Of a stretch of DNA of 64,000 bases, positions 3,671 to 63,539 are shown in pieces (position 1 is the stretch's first letter; each line of letters starts with the position of its first letter). The notes below the pieces were generated by a model, which saw only the letters and a list, made by a program, of their open reading frames with translations, was not told where the DNA came from and made no database searches. The stretch is from Azolla caroliniana (taxonomy: Eukaryota > Plantae > Polypodiophyta). The DNA lies in the NCBI GenBank assembly GCA_043228905.1, contig JBHGNT010000011.1:2046001-2110000 (forward strand). The letters run 5' to 3'. The position numbers and the translations under genes are program-made.

Positions 3671-4962
3671 TGTAGTATGCTTAATTACGTAATAACCTCA
3701 AATTTCTCTCCTACATCTCTCCTCTATCTTTTTCCTTCGATTTGCTACTCCTTATATATATGTGCCTTGGCGCGCTGTCGCGGTAGTCTGCGGTTGCATG
3801 TCTGATCCAGGCGGGACCATCGGGGTCATGGACCAGGAGGGGAGGAGTTGCTGGGAACCCGAAAGCTCCGGAGCTTGCCACGTTTCCGGCCGGTTCGATC
3901 CCGGATACTCTCCGGACGCGACCGATAACCGCATGGGAAGTGAGGGAGAGTGCCCTCTTCATTTCTGCCCCTTTCGCTCGTATGTACAAGGCGCCCAAAA
4001 GAGGCACGAGACATGGCCCGGTTAACCGCGCTTGCGCACACACACACTCACATGTACACGCAACGCTCGCTGCGATGCCAGTTCCACACGGAGAGGAAGA
4101 GGGAGCTTGCATCCTAGGGTTGTTTGGGGAGCCCCCAAGGTCGTTCATGCGACGGGACCCTCGTGCAGGGCACGCCTCTTCCAAAACGACCACCTCTAGT
4201 CACCAAGCCGCCTTCAAGGGAGCGCACGGGCTCGCTGAACCGAGTTGGCTCTTGCACGCCAAGGAGGGAAACCTGCCAACGAACCACCCAACGCGCGCTC
4301 TCTTTACAAGCGGCGGGAGCAAACAACCACACACACATAGACATACTGAACCGTGGAGTACTGAGGACCAACAAGCAGGAACTCAGGGAAGGCGTAGACA
4401 ATCTGCACGTTGCCCGCCACAACTAAACACGCCACCTACGCACGCACACAAAGGACACCGAAACCCTAACAGAGAATAGAGACCGCACACACCAAGATGA
4501 AACCCTAACAGAGAATAGAGAAAGACGTTATTCACAGAAGTTTATTAACACTAAACGGAACCTCAAAATGTGGAACAAAACTCTTTGGGACCCAACGGGT
4601 GGGAACCCTTGTACAAGAAGCGTGCCCTCCCTTTTATAGAACAAGGTGAGGGTCGCGTGACTATGTGGGATAAATCCCGTGATACATGGGATCCTCCGTC
4701 CCAACTTTCGGCGCCATAAAGGCGCCCTTATTCCCTATACAAGTTTTACAAGAGTGGGTGCACATGGTGCACCTTGCTGATTCCTCCAATATCTCCCGGT
4801 TTCTCACGGTAGCGCAGAATCTTCACGACAACGCTCCTTCTCCTTCCACATTTACGGCTATGTTTATTTTGGCTACTTCTGATTGGCTTCAGTTGTTTTA
4901 GCTACTGTTATCTAATACTTGTTACGTTTCACATATGATACTGTTTTGGCCGATGGACAACA
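3671..4962 (+). mobile_element. Short LTR of family B (~235 bp) split by a 1055-bp insertion
   Basis: TGTAGTA...GACAACA; 3671-3775 plus 4835-4962 align along their length with 13964-14196. Confidence 0.9.
3776..4830 (-). mobile_element. GC-rich solo LTR with TGTCGCG...CACGACA termini and 4-bp TSD
   Basis: Interrupts LTR B; TSD GCGC/ACGC, checked against the uninterrupted copy at ~14062; TATA-like CTATAAAAG on the minus strand at ~4635. Confidence 0.8.
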
Positions 4963-4964
4963 CC

Positions 4965-4981
4965 TGGCACGCCCGTGGGAC
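4965..4981 (+). promoter_or_regulatory. Putative PBS complementary to a tRNA-Arg 3' end
   Basis: TGGCACGCCCGTGGGAC two bases after the LTR CA; resembles the TGGCACGCCCNGTGGGAC Arg PBS of Tat/Ogre-type elements with one base missing. Confidence 0.7.
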
Positions 4982-5054
4982 AGTGCCTTGGCACGTCGAA
5001 CCCAACAAATCGAAATTTCCCCAAAAACCTTGTTGAAATTAATTAGAGTTAATG

Positions 5055-7844
5055 CTAGGTCAAAATGTGGAGGATTCCCTCCGTCTGGTTTGGTTTTGTG
5101 GTTTCGTCCTTAGGAATGGTCGCAGGGTCAGGTTGTGGTGTGCTGGTGTTTTCGGTCAAAATGTCTGTTGCACGCTCCTTTTTGTTGTTGCTCGAGGATC
5201 TTGGGGAGGTTGGGGTGTGGCTGTCCGGCTTTATCGGTCGGTCTTCGACTGTGACAGGTTGTTTCGGAGCGTTATCGTTCAAGGCTTGCTCCGTTTGGAT
5301 CATCACCAACATTTGGTCGTCGTTGAATTCCTCAAGGAGGGTGCCGATGGCTTTGGTGTGGGTATCAGCTAGGGCATGAAAATCCTTGGTGAGGTCTTCT
5401 CGGATCATTTGTATGCTATTGTCGTCCATCTTGTAGAAGCCTTTTCCTCCCTTCCTTCAGTTTTTGGCGTCCGCCTGTAGGACTTGCATTTCGGTTGCTT
5501 GAGCCGACCATTGCTTCCAACTTGCAACTAGTGTTTCCTCGACCTTTTTGTTTAATATCTGTCGTTGCTTCATGACTAACACATTGATGCGTTCCTCCCG
5601 TGTGTCGTACATTGTTTGAAGAGCCAATGTCTCATACTTGGCTCTTTCTATGTCGAGCCGTAATTTCCCTGTAAGAATTTCGCAAGATGTATTGACTGCC
5701 TTGACACTTGCCGCTGTTTCCTCCATTACTTTGTCGATTCGTCGGTTGAACTGTGTTTGAGCCTCCTCTAGTTCTTTTATGTGTTGTTCGTGTGTCTGCT
5801 CACGTTCGTGGATACTATCTATTTGGTGTTTGGGGAGCTCATCAAATAACCGGATGTGCTCGTTTTTTACGTCTTCGTATTTTTGCAAAAATTGACTCAA
5901 GCATACTTGCATTTCCACGAGTTCTTTGTTCAATGAAGCGATTTGTGCAACCGCAATGTCCTGTATGGATGTAATAGAGTCGACCACTTTTTCTTCTGTC
6001 TCCTTGACCTTAGCCATCTGTTCTTGTAGCACCTTCATAAGTTCGGCTTCCTTGTGCATGGATTTCTCCTTGCTTTTGACGGCCTCCGCTTGTGCGTGCT
6101 TGTAGCATTCTTTCACTTTTTCTGCAATGGTTTTGTGCAGATCAATCTCTTCTTCATATTGGCGAATAGTTTCGCCTATATCTTCGTCGGTTTGCACAAC
6201 TGTTGTCGCCAGAGCGGTAGGGCAAGGTCGCATGGTATGATCGACTGTGTTGGTTCGTTCGCACACATCGGGATGGTCCGTTTGTGTCGTCGTCCTGGTC
6301 TGTTCGAGCCAATGTGGTAAGTCCGTCTACATTGATTGATCATTGGAGGTAGAAGGGGGAGGGTAGAGGGGGCGGTGGTGGCTGATCCCGTGTTCGAAGC
6401 TGCTGCTCTAATTCGGCCCGTTGTGCTTTAGAGGCTTGCCATAGGTCTATGGCAGCCTTTGCTTGCTTGCTTCTTTGTTACGGGTAGCCATGTCTTTGGC
6501 GGCATGCGTCGCTCTGTCCAATTCCTGGTATACTTCGACCAACTCCGTGTTGAGCTTTGGAAGCTCAATGCGTGTTCGTCGTTTCTTTGTTGCCTGTTTG
6601 CGTCCAACCTTCCGTAGTTTCGGCTCATCATCTGAAGCCAGTTCATTGTCTAAGGCTCTCTCTATGACCTGCTACTGCTGCTCGACGTGTTCCTGGGCCA
6701 TGCGGGCCATGACAGCTACATCGAGACAAGACAAAAAGTCGATGAGATCGTATGCTGTGCCATGTTGCAAATGTGCTCCGAGTTCGAATGCTTCCCCTGG
6801 TAGATCGCAGAAGGTTAATACTTCATCCTCCGAAAATTGTGATTGCTGACCTTGCTCAATAGGTATGTTGGGATCCATCGTGTTGGTTGTCACGATTGCG
6901 GTAGTTTCCTTCGAGCGGAGGACCAATTGTTTGTTGGCAACCAACATTCCATCCTTGATCTACATGGTGTAGGTAGTGTTGGTGCGACGACGTTTTGCGG
7001 CGGATCAGGTTCTGGTGATGCTTGTTTTGTGCGCTCCTGTTGTTGTTCGGTCTCCACTAACTGTGGGACCTCTAGAACAAACTTTGGCTGTTCGGCCTAT
7101 TTGGCTGGTTTCGAGGGTAGTGTCGGGCGGGGTGAGGGTATTGCCCGTGCCATCTTATCACGACCGTGTATAGTGATATTGTCCCCGTCTTCGGTGTTTT
7201 GCTCGTCTTGGGTTGTGGACATGGCCTAGTTATCTTAATCTTGCCACTCTTCATGCGACAACTGCAATGTTCATTGTCGTTTAGCCCTAGGGGGTGCAAC
7301 AGGGAGCGCCAATGTCTGTCGTGGCGGTTGTGCTTGGGGAGGGTACAACATGGCAGTGTATTGTGCTAGCACGGGTAAAAATCGTTTCTCGATTGAAAAG
7401 AAGCGATGGCCGCTCGGACACCTTCCCCGATGATGATCCCCTAATCGATTGCTCTGCCGCGGTAAGCTGTAATAATTAATCCTGCTTATTCTTTGGCATG
7501 CCATAGGGGTTTGCGTGGATGCAGGCGTACTCGAGGAGGAAATGGGCTAGGTTCCCAAAGAACTCATTGGGACCTCCATGTGTGCGATGAGCTTTTCCTG
7601 AAAGTGAATATTCTCTGAAATGTTGCTCCAAGATGTGTTGAGGCAGTGCGTCGATATCGTGTTCACCTCCGCTCTGCAGATGAAGCGCTGCTCGGATCAT
7701 GTTGTTGGAGATGGTGTCAGGGTGGATCCTTCTAGCGATGGCCTGAGCTTCTGGGTGGGGATGTGCATCGTGGACGTTGAGATATCCTGAGAGGTTGTGT
7801 TTGGACACCTAGGTGCGGAGTTCTCTAGATACTTCGAGCGGCAT
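5055..7844 (-). pseudogene. Large accessory ORF downstream of pol (coiled-coil rich), broken into pieces
   Basis: Collinear minus-strand ORFs 7476-7808, 6672-6947, 5457-6266 (E/K/Q heptad-rich) and 5055-5429; CT-rich leader and TATA-like TATTTAAA at ~8145 upstream. Confidence 0.6.
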
Positions 7845-8271
7845 GGTGAGGGTTGGAGAGTCAGGTAGATAGGGAGAAGGCTGTGGAAATGGAGAACGAG
7901 AGAAAGCTTGGTTAGAGAGAGGAGGTGAGTGGGAGCAGTTCTGCACAGAAGGAGCGAAAGCTTGAGAGTTCTTGCAAGTGTGGTGGCTCTGGCTATTGGT
8001 GATGTTTTTATGTGTGTGCCTCGGTTCTCGAGACGTGCCCTTGTGCCCTAGATTCAGAATCTTGCTTGCCATGCTAGGAGTTAAGGGCCACACGTCGTGT
8101 GAACCATTTGTATTTACTTTTCTTGAACATCGCATCTCGTCTTTAAATAGTGAGTGGGTTTCCTTTTTTATTTTTTCCCCATAATAATATTGTACATGTA
8201 GACGGTAGGTAGGGTTGTTACCATAATTAAGGTGTGATCCCCTCGGAATCCTTTGTTCCACTTACCATTGG

Positions 8272-11200
8272 TTGGTAAATGGGTTAGGTGGTGTCGTTCC
8301 ACGATACGGTTTCAAGCGAAACCCGTTGACCCAATAATGTAGCGCTTCGCCGGCCAGTGTGCCGAGTTGAAAGGTGATGTTGTATGTGTTGATGATCGAA
8401 GCTTGCCGGGCATAGCCCCAAGTTTTGTTTGAAAAACCAGGACCGGCTGCCCGATTTCAAAAGTTTTGTTCGGTATCCGACAATGTCTATCGACAAAGGC
8501 TTTCCTTCGTCTCTGGCCGTGCTCCAATTGAGCCAGATTGGTAATTCGTTGTTCTCCGAGTTCGAGCAATTGGACCAGACGTTGGTGTTCGGATTCTGAT
8601 TCCGGTAATCGTTTGGCTATTTGTATTCGCAAGCTGGGTACCTGGAATTCAATGGGCATTACAACTTCTAATCCGAAAGCTAGCCGAAAAGGCGTTGAGC
8701 CGATACTGGTTTTTAAGGTTGTGTGATAAGCCTATAAAGCATTGTGTAATTCATCATCCCAATCCATGTGATTCTCATTGACGATTTTCTTAAGAATGGT
8801 CTGAAGGGTTTTATTTGTTGATTCAACAAGACCATTAGCTTGGGGGTAGTACGGGGTGCTTTTCTTGTGCATGACGGTGTAGTGGGAGGTTAATTCGCGG
8901 ATGATTCGATTGACGAAGTGTCCTTCGTGATCACTTACTAGCTCGATTGGACAATCGAAACAACACCATAAATTTTTGTAAATGAATTTCGCGGTTGATG
9001 CTGCCATGTTATCTCGAAGCGCTTTTGCTTCGACCCATTTCGTACAGTAATCGGTTGCTACTAGTATATATTTGTTTTCGGTGCGTGTGGCAGGAGGTTT
9101 ATAAGGGCCTACAAAATCCAAGCCCCATTTTTGGAATGGTTCCAAGGGAAGGATCGGCTGGTGCGGCATGCAGTCGCGCTCATCTGGTTGTCCAATTCGT
9201 TGACAAAGATCACACTGTTTACAAAATTTGTGAGCATCCTTTTTCGTGGTCGGCCACTAGAGCCCACTCTGCCAGATTTTTCGGGCTGTGGCGTCGCCTC
9301 CATAATGCCCACCCGCAATCTGTGGTGAGCTTCCCGAAGTATGGTGTCTTTCTCGAATTGTCGAATTGCGCACCTCCAGATGCCATCTGAGGCTTTGTGA
9401 TACAGTGTATTTGTGAATAAACAGAAATTACGGCTTCAGAGTGCTAACCGTTTCTGAGTGTCAAGTGGGAGGTGATCCAGGGGAAGTCCCATACTTAGGA
9501 ATTGTGTCATTTAGGTGATCCAGGCGTCGTTAGGATTAGACTCGATGGGTGTGGTGTCAATGGAGAATAGGGCGGTGTCCGGTAAGTTAGCGTATTCCTG
9601 ATCCGACGGTTCTCCCGTTTCCAAACGGCTAATATAGTCGGCAATGGCGTGTTGAACTCCTGGTCGGTGTTGAATCTCGAAATCGAACTCCTGAAGGAGC
9701 ATCATCCATCGTGCTAACCGACTAGTCAGAGCTTGCTTATTTACAAGGTAAAGTAGTGCCGAATGATCTATGTGGAACGTGAATTTTCGGCTGAGCAGAT
9801 AATGCCGAAATTTCGTAAGGCTATATATCATGTCGAGTGCTTCTCGTTTCGTGGTGGAGTAATTCCTTTCTGCTGTCAAGAGTTGACGGCTCGCGTAGTA
9901 GACTGGGCGATACCAATTGGGTGGGGTTTTTTGCATTAAAGCACTACCGATCGCAATATTGGATGTGTCCACGAATACGTGAAAGGGCTCTGTCCAATCC
10001 GGGGGTTGGACTACTGGGGCTTGGGACAACATGACTTTCAGTGTTTGGTATGCCGTGTCTTCTCATTCTGTCCATCTAAAAGGTACCGTATGGACTGCTG
10101 CGTGTAAAGGGGTCGCAGAATCGGCAAGGTATCGGAGCATACGACTATGCCACCGTATTTGGCCCAGAAATCAGATGAGTGCTTTGGCCGTAGTGGGGGC
10201 CGGGGCATTCAAGATGGCTTGCACCTTGTCTGGGTCCATAGTGATACCCTCTTTACTAACAATGTGACCTAGTAAAGCTCCGCTTGTCACTTGGAAAGCA
10301 CATTTGGCCGGATTGAGGTTGAGTCGTGCGTGCTGACATCTCTTGAGGCATAATCGTAATTGCACAAGGTGTTCCGCGTGTTGTCCATAAACAACAAAAT
10401 CATCAAGGAAGACTTGCAAAAAGGCTGGAATGAAGTCCTTGAAGATTTTAGAGATTATGCGTTGAAATGTGGCGGGGGTTGTTTTCAAGTCGAACATCAT
10501 AACCACGACCACGAATACACCCCATTTTGTTATGAAGGCTGTTTTCTCTTGATCATCTGGGTGCATGCGAATTTGATTATAGCCACTGAAACTGTCGAGG
10601 AAGCTATAACAATCGTGGCCGGCCATTGTATCAAGGATGATGTCGGTGCATGGAAGTGGGAAGGCATCCGTGATCGTGACGACGTTAAGTTTCCGGTAAT
10701 CCACACAAACCCAGATTTGTCCATTCTTTTTCGGGACGACCACAATAGGACTTAGCTATGTGGCCCTTTTCACCGGCCTGATGAATCCTACGCGTAGTAA
10801 TTTATCGATTTCATCTTCTACTTTCGCCGCATAGTTGGGATTCATACAATATCGTCGTTGTTGAATTGGCCGTGCGTCTGTTTGAAGGTGTATCTGGTGT
10901 TGGTAGTACTGAGGATCTAAGCCTGTCATGTCGCTGTAGGACCACGCGAACACGTCCTGATACTCCGTAAGCAGTCCAATTAAGGCCGATCTGTCCCTAG
11001 TTGCTAGGTCTTTGGCAATTTTTATGGTATGTGGCTCGGAAGGTGAGCCGAGGTTGACCTCTTCTAAGGTGGAGGCTTTTACACATTGCGATATTGCTAA
11101 TTCACGGTCAAGTGCGTCACAGGCTTGTAGAAGTTCTTTTATTAACGCCTGGTCGGGTTTCGTGGGGAACTTCGTGATCGATGGCATTGGCTATGTAGGG

Positions 11201-13620
11201 TTCGACGGCCGAAAGGACGTCGATTTCAAAAAGCGGAACTATCGTAGGGTGGTCATCCACGAACGAGTTCAGCTCGTCATCTGCGAGACCATCTAACATA
11301 TGGAATCCTTCGGTGTATAATGGGTTGTTGTCAGAAGAAGTCGGGGTTCGTGCTTTTGTAAGAATGCGGACTTTAGTTTTTCCGCACCAAAATGAGATCA
11401 TGTTACGCTGCCAGTGCTGCTTGATGTTGGCGGTACGTAGCCATGGACGCCCAAGCAAGAGGGGGTAAGCCCCGGGGGCCTCTAAGTGTAAGATTACGGC
11501 TGACACGATAAAAGCATGCCCTCCCAAGGTAAATTCCAAGTTTCGAATGAGGCCTATTGGGCGTATCGACCGTGTATACACCATTCGTAACCAGAATGGA
11601 CACAACTCCCATTGAGTGATGCCGATCTTGTTGCATGTCACTTCGCTGATCACATTGACGCCTGAACCACCATTAATAATGCATCTGGGAACTTTGTGAC
11701 CTCGTAAGATGAGTTGTACAACTGGATTTTGTGAATCCATAAGAGGAGATCCTGGTGTTGGGGCTGTGAGGTTTACGGATGGATGCAACGGATCCCGATT
11801 TGTGAGTGAATGGACCATCTCCTTGAAGCGAGGTAACAGGTGGAGTAGTTATTGCAGCGGCATGGATATTTGGGAGTCCGCGAGTGCTTGCCACCCGAGA
11901 TCGGTATCCGTGTGATCGGTGGAGCTAGGTTGATCCGAGTGTGCGGTCTGTAGTTGGCCGTGTTTTTGTTCATTGGATTCCACCATGTCGGCTTTCATAC
12001 GGTCTATGTTGGCGTTATTGGTTGTATCTACCCAGTCCTTAGCCTGTTGCCGAACAGAGTCCTAGATGTCCCACCGTGATTGCTGCATGGTCTTACTGCG
12101 TGTGGTCACCAACTGCATGTTAACCGTGACTCATGTTTACTGCTGGTGCTTTTCCCCTATTGTTGGTGGGGCACTCGTTGGCATAGTGACCTAGGTGATT
12201 GCACTTAAAGCAAGTGATGGGTGTCAAGGTATTGAGGGTCGCCGTGCTCGAAGTGGGTTTGTGGTGGTTTTCGTGGTTGATCCTCCCGTCCCTGCGGAGA
12301 ATATCACTGTGGAGGGTTGTCCTGAGCCTCCATTGGGGGGTTGTGCCAGTTATTCTCGCGTTAGTTATCGCGGCGGCGATTGTCAAAGTGTCGGTGGTTG
12401 CTGAAATTACAAAAACCGCAATTATAGTGCCAATGCTTGTTCATGTGGTGTGGCTGATTGGGGTAGCAATAGGGCTCGATACAATATTGGTTTTCCGGAT
12501 TGTAACATGTCGTGTCAAAGGTACTCCCCTGTGTTGTACTATGGACGGTTTTCTTCCCACGGCCGTGTAGCCTCTCTGTTGAGTGGGGGTGGTTTTGCTT
12601 GATTAGGACGAGGCTCAATTTGGTGAACTGGGCTGTGTTTGTCCGGTTCAACATGTTATATTTGCACTAGACCGTGTGGACCCGTGAATGGCAGATGGGG
12701 TAGTGTGGTCGTGAAGGATAGTCAAGGGCGGAGTGCCTAGATCTGGCACATACCGTGCATTGTAACACTTGCTAGAACTGTGTTTCCTTAGTTGTGGGTA
12801 AGGCAGTTTGAAGCGTGCCCATTGTGAATTTCTATGATGTGCCCTATCGAGCGCAAGAACACGGGCAACTACTTGCTCGATGGTTTGTTGTGAAAAACCC
12901 GTGAGAGCCAACATCGTGCATAAAGGCTCACGGAGGTCAGCCAAGAACTTATCCTTGAGATGGTTGGTTGAGACATGTTGTGCCAGTTGGCGGTAGAGAT
13001 CTTGAAATTGGAGAACAAATTGGGATACGATTTCGTTGGGTGCTTGTGTGATTGTGTAAAATAGCCGAAGCAATTCCCGTTTGGGAATCTCTCAGTGGAA
13101 TAATTCTAGAAACTGCGTGCAGACATCCTGGAATGTAGTGAACTCCCCAGGATCGTGCCGAGAAAACCAGCGTGCAGCGGGGCCGTCGAGGGAGAGGGTG
13201 AATTTGGCGATTTTGGAGGCGTCGATCTCCACGTCCATGAGCCGTTGTGTCGAATGGTTGGCTTGCCACGTGTTGAGAGTGGATGTGGGCTTCGGCATCC
13301 GGGCCATCCGTGTAACGGACATAGGGGTGATAAGCCACTATATCAAGATCTGGGTCGTCTGGAAGGGTCGGGAATGGGTTGCGCTCCGGTGGAGGTGAGA
13401 CTTTCGGAGGACTTGGAGGGGTAGAAATATCAGGACTGATATGTGACTGTGAGTCTGGGATTACTGGTGGTGAAGATTGGGTTTTCGGATTGACTGATGG
13501 TGAGATTCGTGATTCTCGGGACAAATGTTCTGTGAGCACGGAATCGGCCGTCTCCTTGGCAAGCTCGGTGCGGCGAGACGGTGGCCGGAACGAGTACTTC
13601 TTTTGGGCGTTGTACTAGCG
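8272..13620 (-). pseudogene. Non-chromovirus Ty3/gypsy gag-pol (gag, CCHC, PR, RT, RNase H, INT) with frameshifts
   Basis: CFKCNHLGHYANEC knuckle (~12200); IINGGSGVNV protease; VCVDYRKLN and FLDD RT; FHVFVDTS/YYASR RNase H; WGLDFVGP and YYPQANGLVE integrase. Confidence 0.95.
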
Positions 13621-13963
13621 ACTGGGATTACCACCACGTGAATTGGCTGTGCTACACAACGTGAACCGAGCGTGCCAAAGTGTGTTACCTTCCACTCCGG
13701 AGGCTACACCTTCGATTCCTAACCGGAATCAGACCAAAGGACTGTGGTATGTGGTGGTCGAAATCGCTTTTACGAAATGGGATGGCACCCTACAGATTAC
13801 ATAAGAGAAAGTCTCGGCTTATGTATACACGATAGGGAGAGATAGATTACTTAACAATTATTAAAAGCGAACATTGACACAACATAGGCCCAGCACTGTT
13901 TAGATTATGGAATGAGAAATGATTACAGTTACACGACTATCTGCCAGAATGTATTAGATACAC

Positions 13964-14196
13964 TGTAGTATGATTAATTACGTAATAACCTCAGGCTTCT
14001 CTCCTATATCTGTCCTCTATCTTTTTCCTTTGATCTGCTGCTCCTTATATATATGTTCCTTGGCGCGCTCCTTCTCCTTCCACGTTTACGGTTGTGTTTA
14101 TTTTGGCTGCTTCTGATTGCTTTCGGTTGTTTTACCTACTATTACCTAATACCTATTACGTTTCACATATGATACTATTTTGGCCCACGGACAACA
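13964..14196 (+). mobile_element. Second family-B LTR, most likely a solo LTR
   Basis: TG...CA termini; flanks TACAC/CACAC; interrupts a minus-strand ORF that reads EEEVNPV|YLIHSGR* once the LTR is removed. Confidence 0.8.
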
Positions 14197-24533: not shown

Positions 24534-25254
24534 TGTCGTGATGTGGCTCGCCTAGAAGCGTAACATTGCTCAAACAGAAGATAACTTGAAAGTGAGGAAG
24601 GAATCACTAGGATTTTGGACAAAAGAGACGAAACGAGTAAAGATGGAGTAAATAGAGATCAACAAGATATGACAAGATACGATGTAGAATGATATTTGAA
24701 GGAATATAAGAAATTTATAATTATTTCATAAAAGAGTTACAAAATGGTTGTGAGCGTCATTGAACCTTCGAACTTTGTCTCATCAGGTAACCGCTCTTCT
24801 CTTTCTTGATAGTAGACCACAATCTTCCCTTCTATCTTTAGATGATGATATGACTCCAACCTCCGCCCTTTCGTTGCGGGTTGAGTACCACAACCACCAA
24901 GCTAGATTTTCTCTTGTATTTTGAAGATTTTTTATTATCTTCACCTTCTTCTCTTCCTCTTTCTCTCTTATGATGGTTTTTACATTATAATTCTCTCTTG
25001 ATCTGATACAATATAATTATATTCAATCTTATTGATTGATATCTCATACAATATAGTTCTCTTCGATTTCGAATCCTTGATATCCCTTCTATCTATACTC
25101 CCTTCTCCTTTTATAGGAAAGGGATGGTTCTACATGTGGGCCATGTGGCGCACATGTAGAGAGGCTCTTGCATGTGTGCTATATGGTGCACATGTAGTAC
25201 ATTACATACAATTGTAGCTTAAATAAAACAACACATATATTCTTACAAATATTA

Positions 25255-25325
25255 CAAGTATTGGCTAGATGGTAAGGTTTGAGTCTCACAAGCTAGAGGT
25301 TGTTGGTTCATGTCCTCTCTTGCCC
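25255..25325 (+). other. tRNA-like A-box/B-box cassette in the LTR of element C
   Basis: TGGCTAGATGGTA ... GGTTCATGTCC; the other LTR retains GGAGGTTCAAGTCCTC at ~31845. Confidence 0.6.
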
Positions 25326-25469
25326 ATGTACAATGTATTTTTTTCTTTATTTGCCTCATATAATGTATAATATAGTGCTTTGTTCGTATGATCCTTATGT
25401 ATAATACACTATCAAGATTCGTTTTAGTTATGTATTTATCTTATTGTAGACTTTTAATGTGAAGTTGTC

Positions 25470-28400
25470 CTACTTCACGACATCCACCCCCTCTAGACCT
25501 GCACATCCTTCGGCATGTGCCACTATCTTTCTATCTTCATGTTGATCTATTGGAGGAGGTTCAAGCTCAAATCTTTTCTTAAATAGTTTTATCCTCTTTC
25601 CAGGTACCACATTTAGAATTAGTGTCCCATCCAATTCACAAAGTTTATAGGTAAAGTTATCATGTACTTTTCTTACTATATAAGGCCCAAACCATCCTTC
25701 AACAAACTTGTATAAAATGCTATGTTGATTATCTAAACTGCTATCATACACAAGCACCCAATCCCCTTCTTCTATTTTCTTAGGTCCAATTTTGTGAGTT
25801 TTATCAAAACAAATTTTATTCTTCAATCGAGCCTCTAATCGTTGGGTTGCTAATTTTAAATTTTAAGGTTGACGCTCTAATTGTTGAATTTGCAAAGCAC
25901 GCAATTCTTCCCTGCTCACCTCTTCTCTCCATGGAATAGATGTCCATGACATAATTGATTCTTCTACCGGTATGATGGGCTTTTGGCCAAGTATCAATTC
26001 AGTTGGCTTGTATCCTATTACTGAACTATGCGTCGTCCAATCCGCCCATAGTGCATAAGGTAGCATGCATGGCCAATCTCTTATTTTACCTTTATAGCTT
26101 TTCACGACCGCCTTAAATATTGGGCTATGTCCTCTTTCAATATTTCCATTGGATTTTGGATTATAAGCAGTTGTAAGTGAGAACTTGACCCCTATCCGAC
26201 TGAAGAATTATCTAGCTTCATCAGAATCAAGTTCTCCTCTATCTACAATTATTTTACCAACACACCCATAATGACATATTACATCTTCTAACAAAGATTT
26301 ACATACAACTCTAGTTGTTTTTTGTCATAGTGGTCTTGCTTCTACTTGGTTTGTAAGGTCTTCTCTTGCTAGTACTAAATATCGCATTTGACCTTCCCCA
26401 AGTGACATTGTCACTAGATCGACCATCCATTTATAATGCATCGATGATGAATATGTTGGTTTTAGCTCATCTTGATACCGAACAGTTGAATACCTCTGGT
26501 AGACCTCACAGGTTTCCACAAATTTCATTACATCTTTATACATATATGGCCAACAATCTGTTTCAACCACTACGCCTGCTCCGATCAAGTAATCTCTATC
26601 TATTTTTAATGTCGTAAGCAAACCCCACAATTCTCATTTAACTTGCGCAGAATTTCTTTGTCTATGATTTAATATCTTTGCCCCAAACATGATAGCATAT
26701 CGATGTTGCTCTTCTTCTTCTTGGTTGATAACCCAATCAATCCCAATTGGACTAGTATCAACTATCACTATAATTGGTCTTTCACCTTTGTAGTCTGGTT
26801 GACGAAGAATTGGAGCTTTCAATTGTTGAAAAACTTGTGTATTTTCATCAGTCCAAATAAACTTCTTCCCTTTTTTTAAAAGTTGGTAGAGAGGATTTGA
26901 GACATGTGCAAAGTGTGGTAACCAAATATGATAAAACACATATGTACCTAAAAATCTTCTCACCTTTGTTACCGATTCGCAAACTTCCTTCATATTTTGT
27001 ATTGCTTTAATTTTGATTGGCGAAGGCTTCCACCCATACCAACCACACATATGAGTAATTATCAGAATTTTGTTCTGCCCAAAAAATTGACTTCGTTCTT
27101 GATAGTGTTAAATGTACTTGCTCAAGCTTATTTAAAATACTTTCATAATCATTAATGTGATTGATCACAAACTTTCTGCTACCATTTCCAACTATAGTCT
27201 CATCTTTCTCTCTTTCTAAGCATCCCTTAATAGGAATATCATCTAAAAATGGCATAGTTACCTTTGGGATGTACTCGTGTAGAACTTTGTTCATTGCATT
27301 CATCATATGAGCAACTAAATTTGTTGCGCCTTGAGGTAGAGTGCACATTCGAACCAACCCAATTGGTGTTTTCATTGTTGTGATATTGCGACTATCAATT
27401 GCTTGCTGAAATTGGTCATATCCCGAATATAGGTCTCCCATAGAGTAAATCGCTCTCACAACAAAAGCTTCTGCAAATTCATCAACGATCAGTTCGATTC
27501 TTGCATTTTGGATTGTGACTTTGTTCACTGGTTGTATATCTTGAATGAATCTTAGAGAACCATCTTTCTTTGGAATTGTGACCATCGATTGGAGTATGGT
27601 GCATTAGAAGGATCTACAATCTTCATGTTGATTTTATCCTTCAGCAACTCCAACAATTTAGGCAATCGAGTTCTCGATACTGCAATAGGTTTAAAATTCC
27701 AAGGAATATGAGGGATAGTAAATATTACCATTGGCGTCACCACCTTTGGATCTACACAACCAATCTCCTCAACTTTGAATGCGAACGCTTTCCCATGCCT
27801 AAAGATCATTTCCTTGAAAGTCGACATCTTTGATTGTAGTAGAAATTCACCCCCTCCGATTCTCAAGTTATTTATTGTCTCTGAAGTGAAGTGATGTCCA
27901 ATCTTCTCTATCGGTCGAAGCATAGGCTCAGTTGATGTTGCCTCCATCTTTTCTTCGCTACCAATAGGTAATGGTATTGTAGCAGGTTTGATCTTTTTAT
28001 CTATTGTTTGTATTTTCTATTACATAAACTTTCTACTTCTTCATATTTACAATTATACCTATCAGTCGCATAATTCATATCAATTGAATTTACATTTATC
28101 TTTCTAACACTCTCATCATCTTCTTTCAAATACATTTCTAACTCTTTTATGGTATTTGCAAAAGAAACTTCTTCCATAATAATTTCAAATATGCTCTTCC
28201 ATTTGAAGTACTCCATTATCCTTCAATGCTTGTTGAAACAAGGCATTCATACATCCTAGTCACACATATAGCACCACTTTTAGAAACATGAAATTACTTA
28301 TTCATATGTTGTAATGCCCGACATGAGGGTTTTTTAATAATGGAACTATTGCAACCCTCATTGCCAATAGTCCTAGTCAAAAACCTGATTATTAAAATCA

Positions 28401-30370
28401 TCACATTCTTTTGGTATCGAAAATCACGAAGCTCTTGCTTGTTCCTCTCATCATTTGGGCGAATTTTCATAAACTGTACATTTCGTCATCCATCTTGGCT
28501 ACGTATTTTCGCATAGGCTGAACCATTGTCGAGGACTTTGGTTTCCATCTGTACTGTTGTGATGTATGGTTGCCCCAAGATTATTGGATAGGTAGATCCT
28601 TCCTTCACAAAGAAATGTTGATCTACTTCTATATCACCAATAGTAACCTTTACATGCACCAAATAAGTCTTCGTTGACTGATGTGGTCACTTTTACTCGC
28701 CAACCATGTTGAGTATCAATTGGCCATCTACCTTTCATGTAAAAATCAACACTCATTATATTTATTTCAGAACCATGATCAATAAGTGTCATCACGGGGT
28801 CTGGAACATTTCCAATCTTCACATGATGCTCAGTAGTGGCTTCTTGCATCTGTTGAACTTATCATTGAGGTTGATGCATGTTGAGAGTCAACAATGATAT
28901 TGTTTGGCTCGTTGCTCACCACTTCATATGCCACCTTTCGATCCGTCTTTTTAACCTACTCATTAACTTGCTTATTTCTTCGCACAATATCAATTATTTC
29001 ATCATGAAATTCCTTTTTTGCAATACCTAACAATTCCCTTAGTGTAAATTCTACTCGACTGTCTAGTATTCTTGTTTCTAAAATTTTCTTTAAATCTGTA
29101 TCCTTTTCAATATCAAACATTAATTTGAAAGAAGGACCAAATTTACCTTTTTCAACTTTTGTGTCCATATCTTTTCTTTTGCTTTCTCTTGTTTCATGCT
29201 TTTATGTCGAGCCAGTCTCATCATCCGGACTTTTCCTTTTTTCTTCCACTATCACCTCATAGTCTTGGTGTTCTGGCATCTTAGCATAGATGGTCATAGC
29301 ATCTACCAGAACATCCCATCCAGTGTTTTTCCTTACAAAATCTCCGGCAACATGAAGGTCTTCCATCTTCAGATTTTGCTTTTTTGTGGAACTTACAACC
29401 TTCTCCCAGAATGATGATTGGCATGGCGTTTTATCGAGATGCATTCCTGCCGTTGCCGAATAGTACATTGTAGAAGTCTTCCTTGCTTCAACTTCTTCAA
29501 ACTTGACAACACCATCACCAAAGTTCTTTGTAAGTGGACTCCTAGTTTTAGTTAAGTAAATCTTACCATTTTTCCAATAGACCTAGTGTCGATTTTCTAT
29601 GTCTTTATATTCCTCACAATCACGTAATCGATGTTTGAGACTATCACAATGCATGCATCGAGGTCGAAATGGTTCCCATGACCTTGAAGTCTGACCATTC
29701 TCAAGCTTTGCCACTTTAATTGTTAAATCTTTCATACTTTGAACAAAATTATCAAGCAACGACTCACTATTAGTTCCGATCATTTGTCGTGGTTCTCAAC
29801 CAAGTCTTTGAACTTTAATGTTTTGCTCGAGCCGATTCATGATTCACACATGTGGTATTTGTAGCATTGTACCATTCCTTTGCATTCTTTTCATAAATTT
29901 ATTATAAGAATTTATTAGCTCATTCCAATCTGCAGTTATACCCTCCTCGATATTTGCTACTTCAAGCATAAGTTCCAACTCCTTTCTATATCTGTTGTCA
30001 ACTGCCTACAAAAATAAAGCAACCTTTTGCCAAGACAAAGAATTTCTTTCTTCTGGCTTTAAGTGTCCATACAATTTATCAAACTCCTTTTTTTTGTCAG
30101 CCACAAATAATCCTTTATCTTCTTTTAAGACCCATTCATGGAATGAACGCATAGTATCTCCAGAAAAATCTTCACAAGCATATTCAGACATAAGTGTTTC
30201 TTTGAATGCATCCCAATCCAAACTATGCAATGTTTGTATTTCACGAATTCTATCTCTTAATTCCATGTCCACTCATTTATAAAAGTTTGCTATCATATTT
30301 ACATCATTCACACCAAACATTTCCCTTTCATCATAATATATATTCAAGTACTTTGAAATATGTGTGCCAT
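25470..30370 (-). pseudogene. gag-pol of element C
   Basis: PRCMHCDSLKH knuckle; LIDHGSEINI protease; RFIQDIQPVN, DLYSGYDQF, LPQGATN and PFLDD RT; VDTSPIG RNase H; WMVDLV integrase; WFGPY C-terminus running into the LTR. Confidence 0.93.
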
Positions 30371-30372
30371 CA

Positions 30373-31077
30373 TGTTAGGAAACAGGTCCCTCCGGATGGG
30401 AAGTGAGAAGAACAGTGCTGATGAGAAACCGGATGAGGAGCACCCGGCTACGGAGTACCCGGTGAGAACCGGATGAGGAGTACCCGGCTACGGAGGACCC
30501 AGTGAGAACCGGAAGAGGAGTACCTGGCTACGGAAGACTCGGTGAGAACCAGATGAGGAGTACCCGGTGAGAACCGGATGAGGAGTACCCGGCAAGAGCC
30601 GGATGGTGAAGGCCCGATGAGAAGTGCTCACTGGATGAAGGGACATCTTCGTAAATATGTTTCTGAGAGTCCATCGAGGCTATATTTGTAAATAGCCGAA
30701 AAGTCATATTAGTATAAATATGACTTAGGGCAAACAAAGAAAAATGATTGTTGTTTTCATTCTTGTTGGCACGAGATTAGAGCGCAACAGTGTACAGAGA
30801 AAGAGAGAGAGAGAGAGAAAGAGACGAAGAGTTTGTATCTTTGCTGTAACCGCCGCTTGTGGCGAAGACAGTGAACAAGAGGTCGTTGCCTCTGTGTTCA
30901 TCTATTGTATCTTGTTACATAGTGATAGTTAGCAGTTAGTGGACTGCCGTGGTTTTTTCCCGTGTTTGGGTTTTCCACGTAAACATCCTGTGTACTCTTC
31001 TCTCCACTGTGTCGTGCATTCATTCCCGTTTTCTGTGTTTGATTCTAAGCTCGGTTGTGGCCGAGCATTGCGCAACA
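30373..31077 (+). mobile_element. Copia-type LTR inserted in element C, with an internal tandem repeat at 30400-30630
   Basis: TGTTAG...GCAACA; GGTTTTCCACGTAAA U5-like motif; repeated GAGAACCGGATGAGGAGTACCCGG units; no TSD. Confidence 0.7.
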
Positions 31078-31251
31078 AGTGTGTGTGTTCCTGTCACATC
31101 AAACATACCAATCTTCTCTTGGACTTCTCTAAGGCATGAAATAATTGATCTTGATTCAACTTTTCAATCAACAACCTTACCATATCCATTGTACTCGTAC
31201 TTGCCTTGTTGATGTTGATCTTTACTTTAGATGTCTCTTCTACTTCCCCGT

Positions 31252-31269
31252 TTCATGTCGAGATCACCA
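31252..31269 (-). promoter_or_regulatory. Putative tRNA-Trp PBS
   Basis: TGGTGATCTCGACATGAA, 5 nt after the 5' LTR; similar to TGGTGAACCCGACGTGAA (plant tRNA-Trp complement, recalled). Confidence 0.6.
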
Positions 31270-32722
31270 GATTGTGTCGTGGTGTGGCTTAGCTAGAAGT
31301 GTTGCATTCCTCAGACAAAAGATAACATGAAAGGAAGGAATCACTAGGATTTTGGACGGAAGAGACGAAAAGAGTAGAGATGAAGTAAATAGAGATCAAC
31401 AAGGTATGATAAGATATGATGTAGAATGATATTTGAAGGAATATAGGAAATTTATCATTATTTCATGAAAGAGTTACAAAATGGTTGCGAGCATCATTGA
31501 ACCTTCAAACTTTGTCTGACTAGTAACCGCTCTTCTCTTTCTTGATAGTAGACCGCCATCTTCCCTTCTATCTTTAGATGACGGTATGATTCGAACCTCC
31601 ACCCTTTCGTTGCAGGTTGAGCACCACAACTGCCAAGCTAGATCTTCTCTTGTATTTTGAAGATTTTTTATTATCTTCACCTTCTTTTCTTCCTCTTTCT
31701 CTCGTATGATGGTTTTTACATTATAATTCTCTCTTGACCCGATACAGTACAATTATATTCAATCTTATTTATTGATATCTCTTACAATATAGTTCTCTTC
31801 GATTTCGATTCCTAGATATCCCTTCTATCTCATGAGGTGGAGGTGGAGGTTCAAGTCCTCTCTTGCCCATGTAATACAATGTATTTTTTTCTTTATTTGC
31901 CTCTACATATCATGTATAATATAGTGCTTTGTTTGTATGATCCTTATGTATAATACACTATCAAGATTCATCTTAGTTATGTATTTATCTTATTGTAGAC
32001 TTTTAATGTGAAGCTTTCCTACTTCTCGACACTGGCAAGGCCGGACAAAGGAGTCGGCAAAGCTCGCACTACACCGAAGGATCAGGAGGATCAGAAGGAT
32101 CCAGAACTGGAAAGACCAAAAAAATGCCATCCTTTGTGATGCAGCATGTCAAGGCGAACAGAATGAAGAAAACCACCTCACAATCGGATGAGGTGTGGTA
32201 CGTTGACTCTCGAGCATCAAACACATGACAAGCCATGAACAATCCAAATGATCAGGTACCATTCAAGTAGCGAAAGATGAGCTTAACTTCCTGCCAATGC
32301 TTAACTCATGGGCAATGCATAAACCTGCTCATCTGAGAGACAACAAACTGAATATCGGGTCAGGTTATGCATAAGTAAATCAAGCATCCAACTTCCTGTT
32401 GATAGAGAATAACATCAAATGCATCTCTAGCATCATGAAGGCTCAAACATAAACCTATCTCCATGGGAGTGGCAATAGGTTTACAATCTTCAAGGCCAAA
32501 ACGTTGCAATAATGTGTTAATATATTTTGATTGACACAAAGTTGTTCCACATCAACTTGCATAAATTGAATGCCCAAATAATGATGCAAATGTCCCAAAT
32601 CTGACATATCAAAAGAGGCATGCAAATCATCCTTAAAGTCAACAATGTGCTTCTCATTGGGACTATTGAGCAATATATCATCAACATACATAACCATGAT
32701 CAGAAATACATCATCAGCACGT

Positions 32723-33492
32723 TGTCGTGATGTTTTCGACACATAGTGTGAAACCTCCTCAAAAGAGAATAAAATAGTAGTCCAAATTAACTAATGTTGT
32801 TAAATCAACTATAGTAATAAATGAAAGGATAAAAAGTTAGAAACGGTTTTCGAAAGTAGACAAAAGTAGAGAAAAAGATGGGAAAAGAAAAGCTAGGCGT
32901 GGATATGAGGAGCAAGGTTGAGTAAAAAACTCATAATTTCCTCGTCCAATGTCCAAATTAGAAAAGGAAATATGCATAAGAAAGCTAACCGAAAGAGATT
33001 TTTAAGAATATCTTGCATGTCAAATTTGACGTTGCAGAACAAAAATAGGGATAAAAAGAAACTCAACTCATATAGACAAACTTTTAGGGGTAAAAAAAAC
33101 GGAAGCAAGAAATCCTAAACCTATAATAAGAGCTCATTTTAAGAAGAAGGGGGGAGGGAGAAAGAACGCGGAAGCTCTATTCAATTGGAAAGCGGAAGAA
33201 GAAGGATCAACAACATCAAGAGGCATCATCAACAAAGAAACTCCTTCTATATTCCACTCTCTTCCTCATTCCTTTATAAACAATCCTTGATATTCACATC
33301 CAACCCGTTGTAACATGATTCTTATATTATAAAAGAATCTATTATTTTGATATAAACTAATGTTTTCTTTCATCTACTTGTCTTATGTGTAAATCTTGAT
33401 TGTGTTGTGCGTGTGAACTCTAATTCCTTCCAGTCCATAACCCCGACGGTTCTGCCTCACGATCCGCACATAGTGACAGATTTTTCACGACA
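32723..33492 (+). mobile_element. Solo LTR TGTCGTG...CACGACA with 4-bp TSD
   Basis: TSD ACGT/ACGC; removing the insertion plus 4 bp restores the copia RT frame (STL*CKRADDVFLIMVMYVDD). Confidence 0.85.
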
Positions 33493-60859: not shown

Positions 60860-60965
60860 CCAAAATAGTCTAGATCTTCATTCGGTGGCATATTGAGGTC
60901 GAACTCATACCAAACACAAGCTAAAAATCCTTTGATCAGATAACAAAGGTGAATATACCTCCCAA
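60860..60965 (+). pseudogene. Highly decayed copia integrase remnant
   Basis: IL*SDNKGEYTS motif. Confidence 0.45.
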
Positions 60966-61098
60966 GCCTTACCCATGTACATGTTCGACAAAGGGATTCA
61001 TCTTTAATGGATAGTTCCCTACACCAGATGTAGAATGATGGATTGAATGAATGAACCCGACTCCAATAGAGAGTGATGATAATGCTTCAATATATTGG

Positions 61099-61860
61099 TG
61101 TCGTGATGTGGTGTTCCTAGAGTAAAAAGGGGGAGAAAAGGGCAGTAAATGGATAGCACATAAATTTATAAGAATAATTAAGTGTGAAAAATTATAAAAA
61201 GTTAATGGATTAATGGTTAAGGCTAGTGACTGTTGGGAGGTGTAGGGTTTGAATCCTAACATGTATGTGTGTGGGAAATATGCCTTTTTTTGTATTTTGA
61301 AGAAAAAGAAGGAATGTGAATTTATTATGGTGGGTAGGCTCTCCTCTCACTATAAAAGAGGGGATTGAGCGCTTATTTTAGGGAAATTGGATTTTTTTGG
61401 GGTTTAGGTGTTTTTTGGAGAACTTGTCTTTTTCTTTTTCTTTCGTTTTAGGGTTTGGGATTTCTCTTTACTTTATTTTAGGGTTTTCTTTTCTCTTCTT
61501 CACTTTTATGGTTTTTGGATGTTGGGTTATTTTATTAAAAGTCTTCTTGCTTAGAAGAGGGATAGAAGCGACAAGAAAGGACGCAGTCAAAGAGGAGGAT
61601 GCAAACAAGGGTGTAGAAAGCTAGATGACAAAATGGGAGGTGATAATTGTTTGTGAGCTTAGGACACCGAAACTCAAAGACCTTCCTAGATCATTCTCTC
61701 TTTCTATTGTAAACATCACCATTATTATACCCTATGTTAAGAGGTTTCTTCATTGTAATTGAGCGATGAACATAGTTCTTAATTTATTTTTCATGGAAAC
61801 AATTTTTGTTAGTGTTAATCTCATTAAATTCAGTTATGTAAACATGTTGTGTGGCGTTGT
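61099..61860 (+). mobile_element. Probable truncated LTR starting TGTCGTG, with a tRNA-like cassette (61205-61262) and TATA (~61351)
   Basis: Same left terminus as the other TGTCGTG elements; right end not found. Confidence 0.45.
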
Positions 61861-62424
61861 TGTAAGAGAGTGCTCATAGGGGTTGATTCTACAAGAGCCC
61901 ATGGGAATCCATGAGTGCCCATTCAATTGCCCAAGTGCCCATTCATTTGGCGAGAGCCCATTTGATTGCACAAGCGCTTGTTCATAGCCATGTGCCAACT
62001 CATTCCACAAGAGCCCTTTCATCCCATGAGAGCCCCAAGGACTCCTTGAGCACCCATTCATAGTATGTATGCTAGCTCATTCCATGAGAGCCCCTTGGAT
62101 TCTCTGAGTGCCTATTTATAGCACATGCATCAACTCATTTCCTGAGAGCCATTGCATCCATTAGATCCCTGTGAAATCCATGAGCGCCCATTTATTCCAT
62201 GAGCGTCTTGATTCCACACCATCCTTACATTACACAAAGGTTTTCCATGAAAGGGGAATTACCCAAGGGCATTTCATGAGAGCAACCCATGAAGGAAGCA
62301 CACGAAAGTTCGTCCACTTAAGAAATGCATGAAGGATTTTGAGAACTTCTAAGGTCATTGCATCAGCTTGGTTTAGGTCCCCCATGATCCATCTCGAATA
62401 TCACACGCATGCGCAAGTTTACGT

Positions 62425-63539
62425 TGTCATGAAGATCCTTCACTACGTGTGGATCGTGAGGCGGAACCGCTAGGGTTCTGGACCGGAAGGATTTGAAGTT
62501 TGCACAAGCTTTAGTGAGAAAGTATTTAAGATAAATTGAAAGAGAGAGAGAACTTGAGATAAGAAAGAATGCTTGACTTTAGATTGAGAGACATTAAGAT
62601 TGAACTCTTGACTTTAGATTTGAAGAACAAGATTGATACATCAATTAGATAACAAATTTCTTACTTTTAATTTCTTGATTAATACCTCGCTTCCTTTTTG
62701 TCTTTTTCAACCACTCTTTTATAGATGCCCCATGCATATGATGCATGTGAGGCTACAAGACATGCATACAATGCAGGGAATGCATGTGATGCATGTTTGC
62801 CATTTGGCCCTCATGCATTAAATGTGATGCATGATAACCATGTCACTCAATCAAGCTCTAATATGAGAATTTACATGTAAAAGTATAATGATAGAAAAAA
62901 ACATTTTTAAGCAAATGATTTAGCTTAGTGGTAAGTCTACTACCTCCTATCTTGGGGGTGCAAGGTTCAAGCCTTGCTTGCATCCCTTTGATTACAAATT
63001 TCTAATTGGTTTAGTCTAGATGATTTTGTTTGTTTCACACTGAAATCGTCGCGATTAACCAATCCGATCGATCCGTTCCGCTTCCGACCCAGTGATCCGG
63101 TCTATCTGGTCCAGTCCCGGTTTGATCGCCGTCGCCGTCCGTCCGTCCGGTCACCCAAAACAATTACAAGTAGTTAAGCGACAGTTTAGCCCAAGAACAT
63201 TCTATGTTCCACTCATAGACAAAAAGTAATAAGTTCTGGCTTTGCTGATATAATGTGGGATCTTGATTTGTCCTATATATGTGGGATATCTCATAGTTTT
63301 GTTTTTCTCTTCTTCTTCTCAAACTTCACATTCGCATAACGTGACATTTATTTGTCCGTTTCAAATGTAGTAAAGTACATTCAGATGCTCTTGAAGACCT
63401 CCATATTCCCGTACCAAGATATTAAGCTAATCTAAAATAGTATCTTTACTATCATTGTTTCATGTCTTGTGTGAAGAACCACACTCGATTTTGGACATTC
63501 CTCGCAATTTTCACACCGTTGCTGAAAATCTTCACGACA
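62425..63539 (-). mobile_element. Solo LTR TGTCATG...CACGACA with perfect 4-bp TSD ACGT
   Basis: Empty-site copy TTTACGTGACACTACAAATG at ~63735 confirms the duplication; TATA on the minus strand at ~62720. Confidence 0.9.
62912..62985 (+). other. tRNA-like cassette in the solo LTR
   Basis: A box TAGCTTAGTGG; T-arm-like GCAAGG-TTCAAG-CCTTGC with a perfect 6-bp stem. Confidence 0.7.

What the first reader, a model, noticed from the sequence alone, without database searches (positions are those of the whole stretch)
3776..63539. LTR elements with TGTCRYG...CWCGACA ends, 4-bp TSDs and CG-centred target sites
Seen: four insertions share these termini but have dissimilar internal LTR sequence. Each has a 4-bp duplication centred on CG: GCGC/ACGC (3776-4830), CCGG/CTGG (24534-32031), ACGT/ACGC (32723-33492) and ACGT/ACGT (62425-63539). 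The 4-bp length is checked internally by empty-site paralogs (first and last) or by restoring the host reading frame (middle two). A fifth left end at 61099 follows TTGG, possibly a deaminated TCGG. Established: plant LTR retrotransposons normally make 5-bp TSDs with weak sequence preference, as the copia and chromovirus here do. Inference: a gypsy lineage whose integrase targets (perhaps methylated) CpG, which would steer it into other TEs. All four sit inside repeats.
Basis: partly seen in the sequence, partly recalled or inferred. Interest (0 to 1): 0.8.

Follow-up and report, generated by a model that had tools for sequence, protein, structure and literature searches.

The report
Phygy retrotransposons that target CG sites
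These are jumping genes that insert almost only at CG sites and duplicate four bases, a habit already published for the moss Phygy lineage to which they likely belong; here they are abundant in what is likely a fern or lycophyte genome, and their integrase likely reads the CG sequence itself rather than a methyl mark.

Summary
All four elements have the stated ends and 4-bp CG-centred duplications. Genome-wide, 123 of 147 host flanks of one family are NCGN and 23 more are TG/CA decay products, against 5 of 52 for a chromovirus control. Of 49 solo LTRs, 24 have a perfect 4-bp duplication and none a 5-bp one.

It is not new. Neumann et al. 2019 define Phygy (Physcomitrella) by a 4-bp NCGN duplication, a tRNA-Trp primer site and no chromodomain or extra RNase H. 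All were met here; the phylogenetic test against Phygy references could not be run.

Added here: at least 5,072 LTR-plus-primer-site copies in a seedless vascular plant; several families, one apparently non-coding; a VCGB target; a 3-8 nt LTR-primer spacer.

Methylation dependence is untested. Steering into other transposons is not supported: flanks look like CG-weighted random DNA.

Side finding: one family keeps the gag-pol pseudoknot but has pol in the +1/-2 frame (17 of 17 copies; other families -1, 9 of 9), a likely -2 frameshift.

The parts
3776..4830 (-). E1: solo LTR (1055 bp) of an apparently non-autonomous family; TSD GCGC/ACGC; sits in the 3' LTR of an Athila-like element
   Evidence: no Gag-Pol match in 4 two-LTR stretches
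14065..14068 (+). Empty-site paralog of E1 (single GCGC) in the other LTR of the host element
24534..32031 (-). E2: full-length, decayed Ty3/gypsy element; TSD CCGG/CTGG; inserted in a copia gag; LTR divergence K2P 0.088
31275..32031 (-). E2 5' LTR (757 bp)
31252..31274 (-). 5-nt spacer plus 18-nt tRNA-Trp primer-binding site (this copy decayed; exact in family copies)
30373..31096 (.). Unrelated solo LTR (copia-like by a recalled motif) nested in E2, perfect 5-bp TSD CATCA; internal control
28395..30372 (-). E2 gag (DUF4100 match) and protease region, broken by stops and frameshifts
28323..28386 (-). ORF1/ORF2 junction: G_GTT_TTT site, 5-nt spacer, stem and predicted pseudoknot
25473..28016 (-). 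E2 RT, RNase H and integrase remnants; no chromodomain
25483..25494 (-). Polypurine tract abutting the 3' LTR
24534..25482 (-). E2 3' LTR (949 bp)
32723..33492 (+). E3: solo LTR (770 bp); TSD ACGT/ACGC; in a copia RT; family copies have an 8-nt spacer, tRNA-Trp PBS and pol of the same clade
61099..61160 (-). E5: LTR 3'-type end of the same kind, after TTGG; truncated, far end not found (end coordinate marks only the stretch compared)
62425..63539 (-). E4: solo LTR (1115 bp); perfect TSD ACGT; in a locally duplicated repeat; family has gag-pol of the same clade
63738..63741 (+). Empty-site paralog of E4 (single ACGT)

Best explanation
These are several families of one non-chromoviral Ty3/gypsy lineage, likely Phygy, that insert at VCGB sites with a 4-bp duplication, and their integrase likely picks the site by bending the DNA at the central step and reading the C-G pair directly, with methylation likely tolerated but not needed. 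Shown: element anatomy, tRNA-Trp primer site, polypurine tract, 4-bp duplication, CG centre, avoidance of T at position 1 and A at position 4, and later decay of the CG to TG/CA. Inferred: a PFV-like intasome geometry; base-specific contacts, with two lineage-conserved candidates (Glu at the PFV Ala188 position, and the QHSTxRKF loop of the C-terminal domain); removal of 3-8 extra nucleotides at the U5 end; trans-mobilisation of the non-coding E1 family. Nesting in repeats would follow from CG density and from selection against insertions in genes.
For: CG at 123 of 147 host flanks, TG/CA at 23, other 1 (hand count of the 200 rows listed of 309 matches), versus 5 of 52 for a chromovirus (hand count of 100 rows of 146; Fisher p 5e-22). 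Solo LTRs: 24 of 49 perfect 4-bp, 39 of 49 with at most 1 mismatch, 0 of 49 at 5 or 6 bp. Family-blind sample: 21 of 25 host flanks CG, 3 CA, 1 other (30 loci). T1 3 of 72 and A4 3 of 72 against 33% and 35% background; the same avoidance, with a central YR step, is reported for retroviruses with 4-bp duplications (PMC4422553 passages). The closest solved integrase by sequence is PFV's (E 1e-21). ZAM integrase binds CGCGCg directly on oligonucleotides (PMC2527525 passages; that these were unmethylated is my inference). Phygy features match (PMC6317226 supplement table). Flank CpG density equals CG-weighted sampling.
Against: Flexibility alone cannot explain it: TA, TG and CA are each as common as CG in the flanks (5.2, 6.8, 6.7 versus 4.6%), yet 38 of 39 good duplications have CG in at least one copy and none is TA-centred, so a specific readout is needed and its chemistry was not tested. 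No methylation data were examined. All 21 Pfam hits in 91 flanks were retrotransposon domains and none a host gene, which also fits a preference for methylated DNA. No Physcomitrella reference was among the homologs listed. 10 of 49 solo pairs and 4 of 17 full-length E2 pairs had 2 or more mismatches; some are visibly mis-called junctions or tandem arrays, and they were kept in the counts.
Confidence: 0.65

Rival explanations
1. The integrase reads 5-methyl-CpG, so the lineage is steered into already silenced DNA.
For: Near-exclusive use of CG among flexible YR steps; 21 of 21 flank Pfam hits are retrotransposon domains; no chromodomain that could do the steering; Phygy nested in Tcn1 was the commonest repeated nested pair in P. 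patens (PMC6911290 passage) and Phygy is enriched at liverwort centromeres (PMC12885004 passage).
Against: Flanks are CpG-rich (o/e 0.86 versus 0.71 locally; 0.82 expected from CG weighting) and no more repetitive than chromovirus flanks. ZAM shows CG-type targeting by direct binding. Decay of the duplicated CG only shows methylation after insertion.
Confidence: 0.17
2. Same target rule, but a separate lineage (sister to Phygy or a fungal Ylt1-like import) that shares the 4-bp NCGN rule and the tRNA-Trp primer.
For: No named Physcomitrella hit among the 120 rows listed in each; the RT clade is very distant from the two other gypsy RTs of the window; Atlas look-alike clusters were led by Oomycota/Basidiomycota (RT) and Basidiomycota (integrase), leads only; some full-length copies are 6.9-7.3 kb, below Phygy's 7.7-10 kb.
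Against: Duplication length, NCGN motif, primer tRNA, missing accessory domains and E2 size all match the one plant lineage published with them; liverwort and fern RTs are 69-76% identical to E2 RT and in the same clade (99/96), and Phygy is reported from a liverwort.
Confidence: 0.12
3. They are TatI elements (also 4-bp duplication and tRNA-Trp primer).
For: TatI: 4 bp (100%), tRNA-Trp 75%, 4 elements.
Against: TatI always has an extra RNase H; none was found in an unbroken pol ORF by Pfam or by reading the RH-INT linker. RT is far from the window's other non-chromovirus (27% identity to a clade member; tree). NCGN is given for Phygy only.
Confidence: 0.02
4. Integration is not CG-specific and the pattern comes from chance, ascertainment or survival in TE-rich DNA.
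For: The four window cases are few, and the search patterns favour well-preserved ends.
Against: The patterns did not constrain the duplication; the chromovirus control searched the same way gave 5 of 52; the family-blind sample gave 21 of 25.
Confidence: 0.01

Closest known systems
Phygy, non-chromovirus Ty3/gypsy clade of Physcomitrella patens (Neumann et al. 2019, PMC6317226; passages, part 2 of section 3 and two supplements read)
   Same: 4-bp duplication with NCGN, tRNA-Trp primer site, no chromodomain, aRH or extra ORF, polyprotein filling the internal part, E2 size 7.8-8.0 kb.
   Different: Host is not a bryophyte by a one-gene tree; motif refined to VCGB; thousands of copies including a non-coding family; some families 6.9-7.3 kb; ORF organisation (listed as not determined for Phygy) is gag-PR overlapping RT-RH-INT.
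PFV and MLV-type integrases with 4-bp duplications (PMC4422553, passages)
   Same: 4-bp stagger, central YR step, T disfavoured at the first and A at the last duplicated base; PFV integrase is the best PDB sequence match.
   Different: Retroviral preferences are weak and accept any YR step; here CG is close to obligatory.
ZAM of Drosophila (PMC2527525, passages)
   Same: Gypsy-type integrase with a strong CG-based target (CGCGCg), bound directly.
   Different: Longer motif plus a second nearby binding site; here there is little signal outside the four duplicated bases.
TatI and Selgy (PMC6317226 supplement table)
   Same: 4-bp duplications; TatI also uses tRNA-Trp.
   Different: TatI has aRH; Selgy uses tRNA-Ala and is about 5 kb; neither is listed with NCGN.
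Arterivirus -2/-1 frameshift site GG_GUU_UUU (PMC4937337 and PMC5009743, passages); for the E2 side finding only
   Same: Same slippery letters, stop right after a -1 slip, short spacers favour -2.
   Different: The arterivirus site is stimulated by proteins on a C-rich motif; E2 has a predicted RNA pseudoknot 5 nt downstream.

Membership tests
Phygy | RT-RH-INT clade with P. patens Phygy references | not testable with these tools
   Reference FASTA and element table too large to read; no named P. patens hit listed. The RT tree shows only one clade of E2, E3, E4, Riccia and Adiantum sequences.
Phygy | Ty3/gypsy domain order GAG-PROT-RT-RH-INT | tested here: met
Phygy | 4-bp target-site duplication | tested here: met
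   24 of 49 perfect, 0 at 5 bp; 11 of 17 and 6 of 8 full-length pairs perfect
Phygy | NCGN insertion preference | tested here: met
   123 of 147; 21 of 25
Phygy | tRNA-Trp primer-binding site | tested here: met
   PBS complement matches host tRNA-Trp(CCA) genes, 4 of 4 loci scanned of 62 matches; seen in E1-E4 families
Phygy | No chromodomain, no aRH, no extra ORF | tested here: met
   Pfam of one unbroken ORF2; linker read; two long ORFs per E2 copy
Phygy | Size 7.7-10 kb | tested here: inconclusive
   E2 7.8-8.0 kb; other coding families 6.9-7.3 kb; descriptive rather than defining
TatI | Additional archaeal-type RNase H | tested here: not met
Selgy | tRNA-Ala primer site, about 5 kb | tested here: not met
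   tRNA-Trp; coding copies 6.9-8.0 kb
Chromoviruses (Tcn1, Galadriel) | Chromodomain at the integrase C-terminus | tested here: not met
   no Chromo hit on ORF2, whereas the window's chromovirus has one
Ylt1-like fungal gypsy | RT/INT clade with Ylt1 and Tca3 | not testable with these tools
   No named references; Atlas rows are leads only; one paper holds both Ylt1 and Physcomitrella, and its Ylt1 passages describe only fungal members

The most novel reading that the evidence does not exclude
The Phygy integrase is a methyl-CpG reader: with no chromodomain, it finds silenced DNA through the target base pair itself, giving a plant retrotransposon lineage a direct DNA-methylation-guided way to hide in other transposons. 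(A separate, likelier novelty, about 0.5, is a retrotransposon family that switched its gag-pol signal from -1 to -2 frameshifting.)
Probability: 0.15. Interest if true: 0.8.

Novelty: new member of a known kind. Interest (0 to 1): 0.35.

Why it matters
The CG rule is in print but only as one line about one moss. This genome shows it across several families and thousands of copies in a vascular plant, with young copies and a clean control. That makes testable why an integrase would target the most methylated and mutable dinucleotide. If methylation is read, it would be a new route of insertion targeting. If not, it is a rare strongly sequence-specific plant integrase. In practice, annotation that expects 5-bp random duplications, or treats Phygy as moss-only, will under-call a major repeat class here. 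The E2 junction offers a natural -1 versus -2 frameshift comparison.

Tried and rejected
Chance or ascertainment: rejected by the chromovirus control and the family-blind sample. TatI, Selgy, chromovirus: rejected on domains and primer. Specific steering into TEs: not supported; the control is small (13 flanks), the background is one 84-kb region, and only the longest ORF per flank was scanned. Longer palindromic target: little signal outside the four bases (8 atypical flanks were left out of the logo, 91 kept). E5 family: 3 matches, no far end. Naming the closest proteins: 10 clusters looked up, no organism names. Atlas searches gave only generic RT and integrase clusters. Expression: no RNA holder listed. 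Contigs of 3 runs, probably DNA, were laid on the junction; two span it without indels and no joint lies at it, which says nothing on splicing. Formal covariation for stem 1 is weak (97.8% paired; 23 of 500 shuffles as high; 1 pair with double changes); stem 2 was judged from complementarity only. Papers PMC12810828, PMC7466625, PMC10886601, PMC2864245 and PMC13469084 (passages) did not bear on the target rule. Earlier-findings look-ups by words and by sequence returned nothing. No structure prediction was run.
Full report
Observation. All termini and flanks are at the stated coordinates. For 3776-4830 (E1) and 62425-63539 (E4), paralogous empty sites in the window carry one copy of the four bases. 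For 24534-32031 (E2) and 32723-33492 (E3), four bases is the tried length that keeps the host copia frame, which fixes it modulo 3. Two unrelated elements in the window show 5-bp duplications: a chromovirus (CTTTA/TTTTA) and a solo LTR nested in E2 (CATCA/CATCA). The end at 61099 resembles LTR 3' ends of the lineage but has no far end and no close family. E3 and E4 share 77 bp at 79%, so the LTRs are not all unrelated.

Anatomy. E2 lies on the minus strand: 5' LTR, 5-nt spacer, primer site, gag with a DUF4100 match, protease, RT, RNase H, integrase, purine tract, 3' LTR. The primer site is complementary to host tRNA-Trp(CCA): 62 places match the tRNA 3' arm, and 4 of 4 scanned are tRNA-Trp genes. 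Copies of all four families carry this site. E3- and E4-family two-LTR copies hold pol that falls in one RT clade with E2, Riccia and Adiantum sequences (99/96), far from the window's chromovirus and its other non-chromovirus (27 rows, 16 unnamed, long outgroup branches, no Phygy reference). Four E1-family two-LTR stretches show no Gag-Pol match and no Pfam domain in the long ORFs scanned, so E1 is likely non-autonomous. The genome has 5,072 exact matches of GACA, a 1-10 nt gap and the primer site. About 70 of the 100 listed have a 4-nt spacer and 17 a 3-nt spacer (hand count); E2 has 5 and E3/E4 have 8. Some E2 copies have identical LTRs, so the lineage moved recently.

Target rule. I searched the E2 LTR start with ten free upstream positions (309 matches, 200 listed, counted by hand). 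53 rows were the internal purine tract. Of 147 host flanks, 123 were NCGN, 13 NTGN, 10 NCAN and 1 other. The same search for a chromovirus gave 5 CG among 52 host flanks (100 of 146 listed; Fisher p 5e-22). Among 49 solo LTRs of the four families with both ends found, 24 had a perfect 4-bp duplication, 39 had at most one mismatch, and none matched at 5 or 6 bp. Full-length pairs were perfect in 11 of 17 E2 copies and 6 of 8 copies of other families. In a family-blind sample, the first 30 primer-site matches, 25 host flanks were scorable: 21 CG, 3 CA, 1 other. T at position 1 and A at position 4 are avoided (3 of 72 each, against 33% and 35%), giving VCGB, with little signal further out.

Are the elements steered into other transposons? 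Flanks are CpG-rich (0.046 per base, o/e 0.86). Sampling the local 84 kb in proportion to CG gives 0.038, o/e 0.82 and the same median (0.044), so most of this follows from needing a CG. Repeat hits were found in 50 of 91 flanks against 8 of 13 for the chromovirus. Pfam hit 21 of 91 flank ORFs, all retrotransposon domains and no host gene. That fits selection in a repeat-rich genome as well as targeting. These controls are small.

Mechanism. Shown: 4-bp stagger, CG centre, VCGB. From the literature: retroviral integrases with a 4-bp stagger kink the target at a central pyrimidine-purine step and disfavour T at the first and A at the last duplicated base (PMC4422553, passages). The best PDB sequence match of this integrase is PFV's. 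Flexibility does not explain why TA, TG and CA, each as common in the flanks, are hardly used, so I infer a base-specific readout. Candidates are Glu at the PFV Ala188 position (ADRGEL in 63 of 78 homologs; 12 not matched by the pattern) and a conserved C-terminal loop; no structure was predicted. ZAM integrase binds its CGCGCg target directly (PMC2527525, passages), a precedent that needs no methyl mark. That CG in plant repeats is mostly methylated is recalled, so the enzyme must probably tolerate 5mC. Whether it prefers it cannot be read from sequence; I give that about 0.17.

What is known. Neumann et al. 2019 state that Phygy elements prefer NCGN, the one exception among plant lineages. 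Their table lists 186 elements, 4 bp (100%), tRNA-Trp 81%, 7.7-10 kb and no extra domain. Those features were met, apart from some shorter families. TatI, Selgy and chromoviruses fail on a defining feature. The defining phylogenetic test could not be run: the reference FASTA and element table were too large to read, and they may also already show the spacer or more hosts. Phygy was described as specific to P. patens and has since been reported in a liverwort (PMC12885004, passages). The host here falls outside the supported bryophyte clade (95/95) and outside seed plants in a one-gene Lhca3 tree, unresolved among ferns and lycophytes. I found no paper describing Phygy in ferns or lycophytes (listings, with passages read for 4 of the 18 papers holding 'Phygy'), and none on methyl-CpG targeting by such an integrase (listing). 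The library lacks most subscription papers.

Side finding. All families examined have gag-protease overlapping RT-RH-INT, with a T-run followed by a stem whose loop can pair downstream. In 9 of 9 scorable copies (of 11) of other families, pol is in the -1 frame after G_GAT_TTT or a close variant, with a 6-nt spacer. In 17 of 17 scorable E2 copies (of 20), pol is in the +1/-2 frame after G_GTT_TTT with a 5-nt spacer, and a -1 slip would meet a stop. The E2 pseudoknot arm differs by a compensatory A-T pair for G-C (by inspection). The site matches the arterivirus -2 site, and short spacers favour -2 (PMC4937337, PMC5009743, passages). The passages seen list -2 shifts for phage Mu, arteriviruses and a totivirus, not a retrotransposon (one search). 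Rivals are a +1 shift, initiation at an in-frame ATG just upstream, splicing at CAG|G, or dependence on other families' pol. Probability of -2 is about 0.5.

Verdict. The pattern is real, strong and genome-wide, and it is most likely the Phygy lineage with its published NCGN preference. New are the host range, scale, VCGB refinement, a non-coding partner family and the frameshift lead. Interest 0.35; new member of a known kind.

Noticed in passing
window 28323-28386 (-); L164:3398-3469; L255:3123-3194: E2 family has pol in the +1/-2 frame (17 of 17 scorable copies) behind G_GTT_TTT, a 5-nt spacer and a predicted pseudoknot; other families use -1 (9 of 9). Likely -2 frameshifting; an upstream ATG and a possible splice acceptor are rivals.
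   Followed up: partly
window 31270-31274; G000-wide: Spacer between LTR end and primer site is long and family-specific (mostly 4 nt; 5 in E2; 8 in E3/E4), and 4 nt separate the G-run of the purine tract from the 3' LTR; this suggests trimming of more than 2 nt before integration.
   Followed up: partly
window about 4960-5010 (-), host element about 3669-14197: The Athila-like host of E1 has a tRNA-3'-end-like stretch ending in CCA 2 nt before its 3' LTR instead of a purine tract, as several earlier notes on this genome describe; tRNA identity not tested here.
   Followed up: no
G000:C8:17796786-17823371, C16:4989495-5105657, C5:10105608-10112201: Tandem clusters of tRNA-Trp 3'-arm matches, about 1.2 kb apart on C8; the primer tRNA of a very abundant lineage may be amplified. 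Not scanned as whole tRNAs.
   Followed up: no
L153-L157, L163; L160, L162: E1-family two-LTR elements have GC-rich, non-coding, internally repeated bodies of about 3 kb or more; E3/E4-type LTRs also bound short deletion derivatives with gag remnants.
   Followed up: partly
window 32723-33492 versus 62425-63539; L158, L160: E3-type LTRs share their 3' end and spacer with E4 but carry at least two different 5' parts, suggesting LTR recombination between families.
   Followed up: partly
window 30373-31096; L155: A solo LTR with a 40-bp internal tandem repeat sits in E2 gag with a 5-bp duplication; a relative sits inside an E1-family element.
   Followed up: no
G000:C10:1342245-1355948: Three E2 LTR starts about 6.8 kb apart: a tandem array sharing an LTR.
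   Followed up: partly
window 21317-23293 (+): hAT transposase remnant (dimerisation domain) next to the copia that hosts E2.
   Followed up: no
window 51540-54206 (+): Likely multi-exon host gene with no Pfam match in its long ORFs.
   Followed up: no
LTR termini of all families: The CG inside each terminus (TGTCG) is in the TCG context that the lineage avoids as a target; possibly limits insertion into its own ends. Speculative.
   Followed up: no
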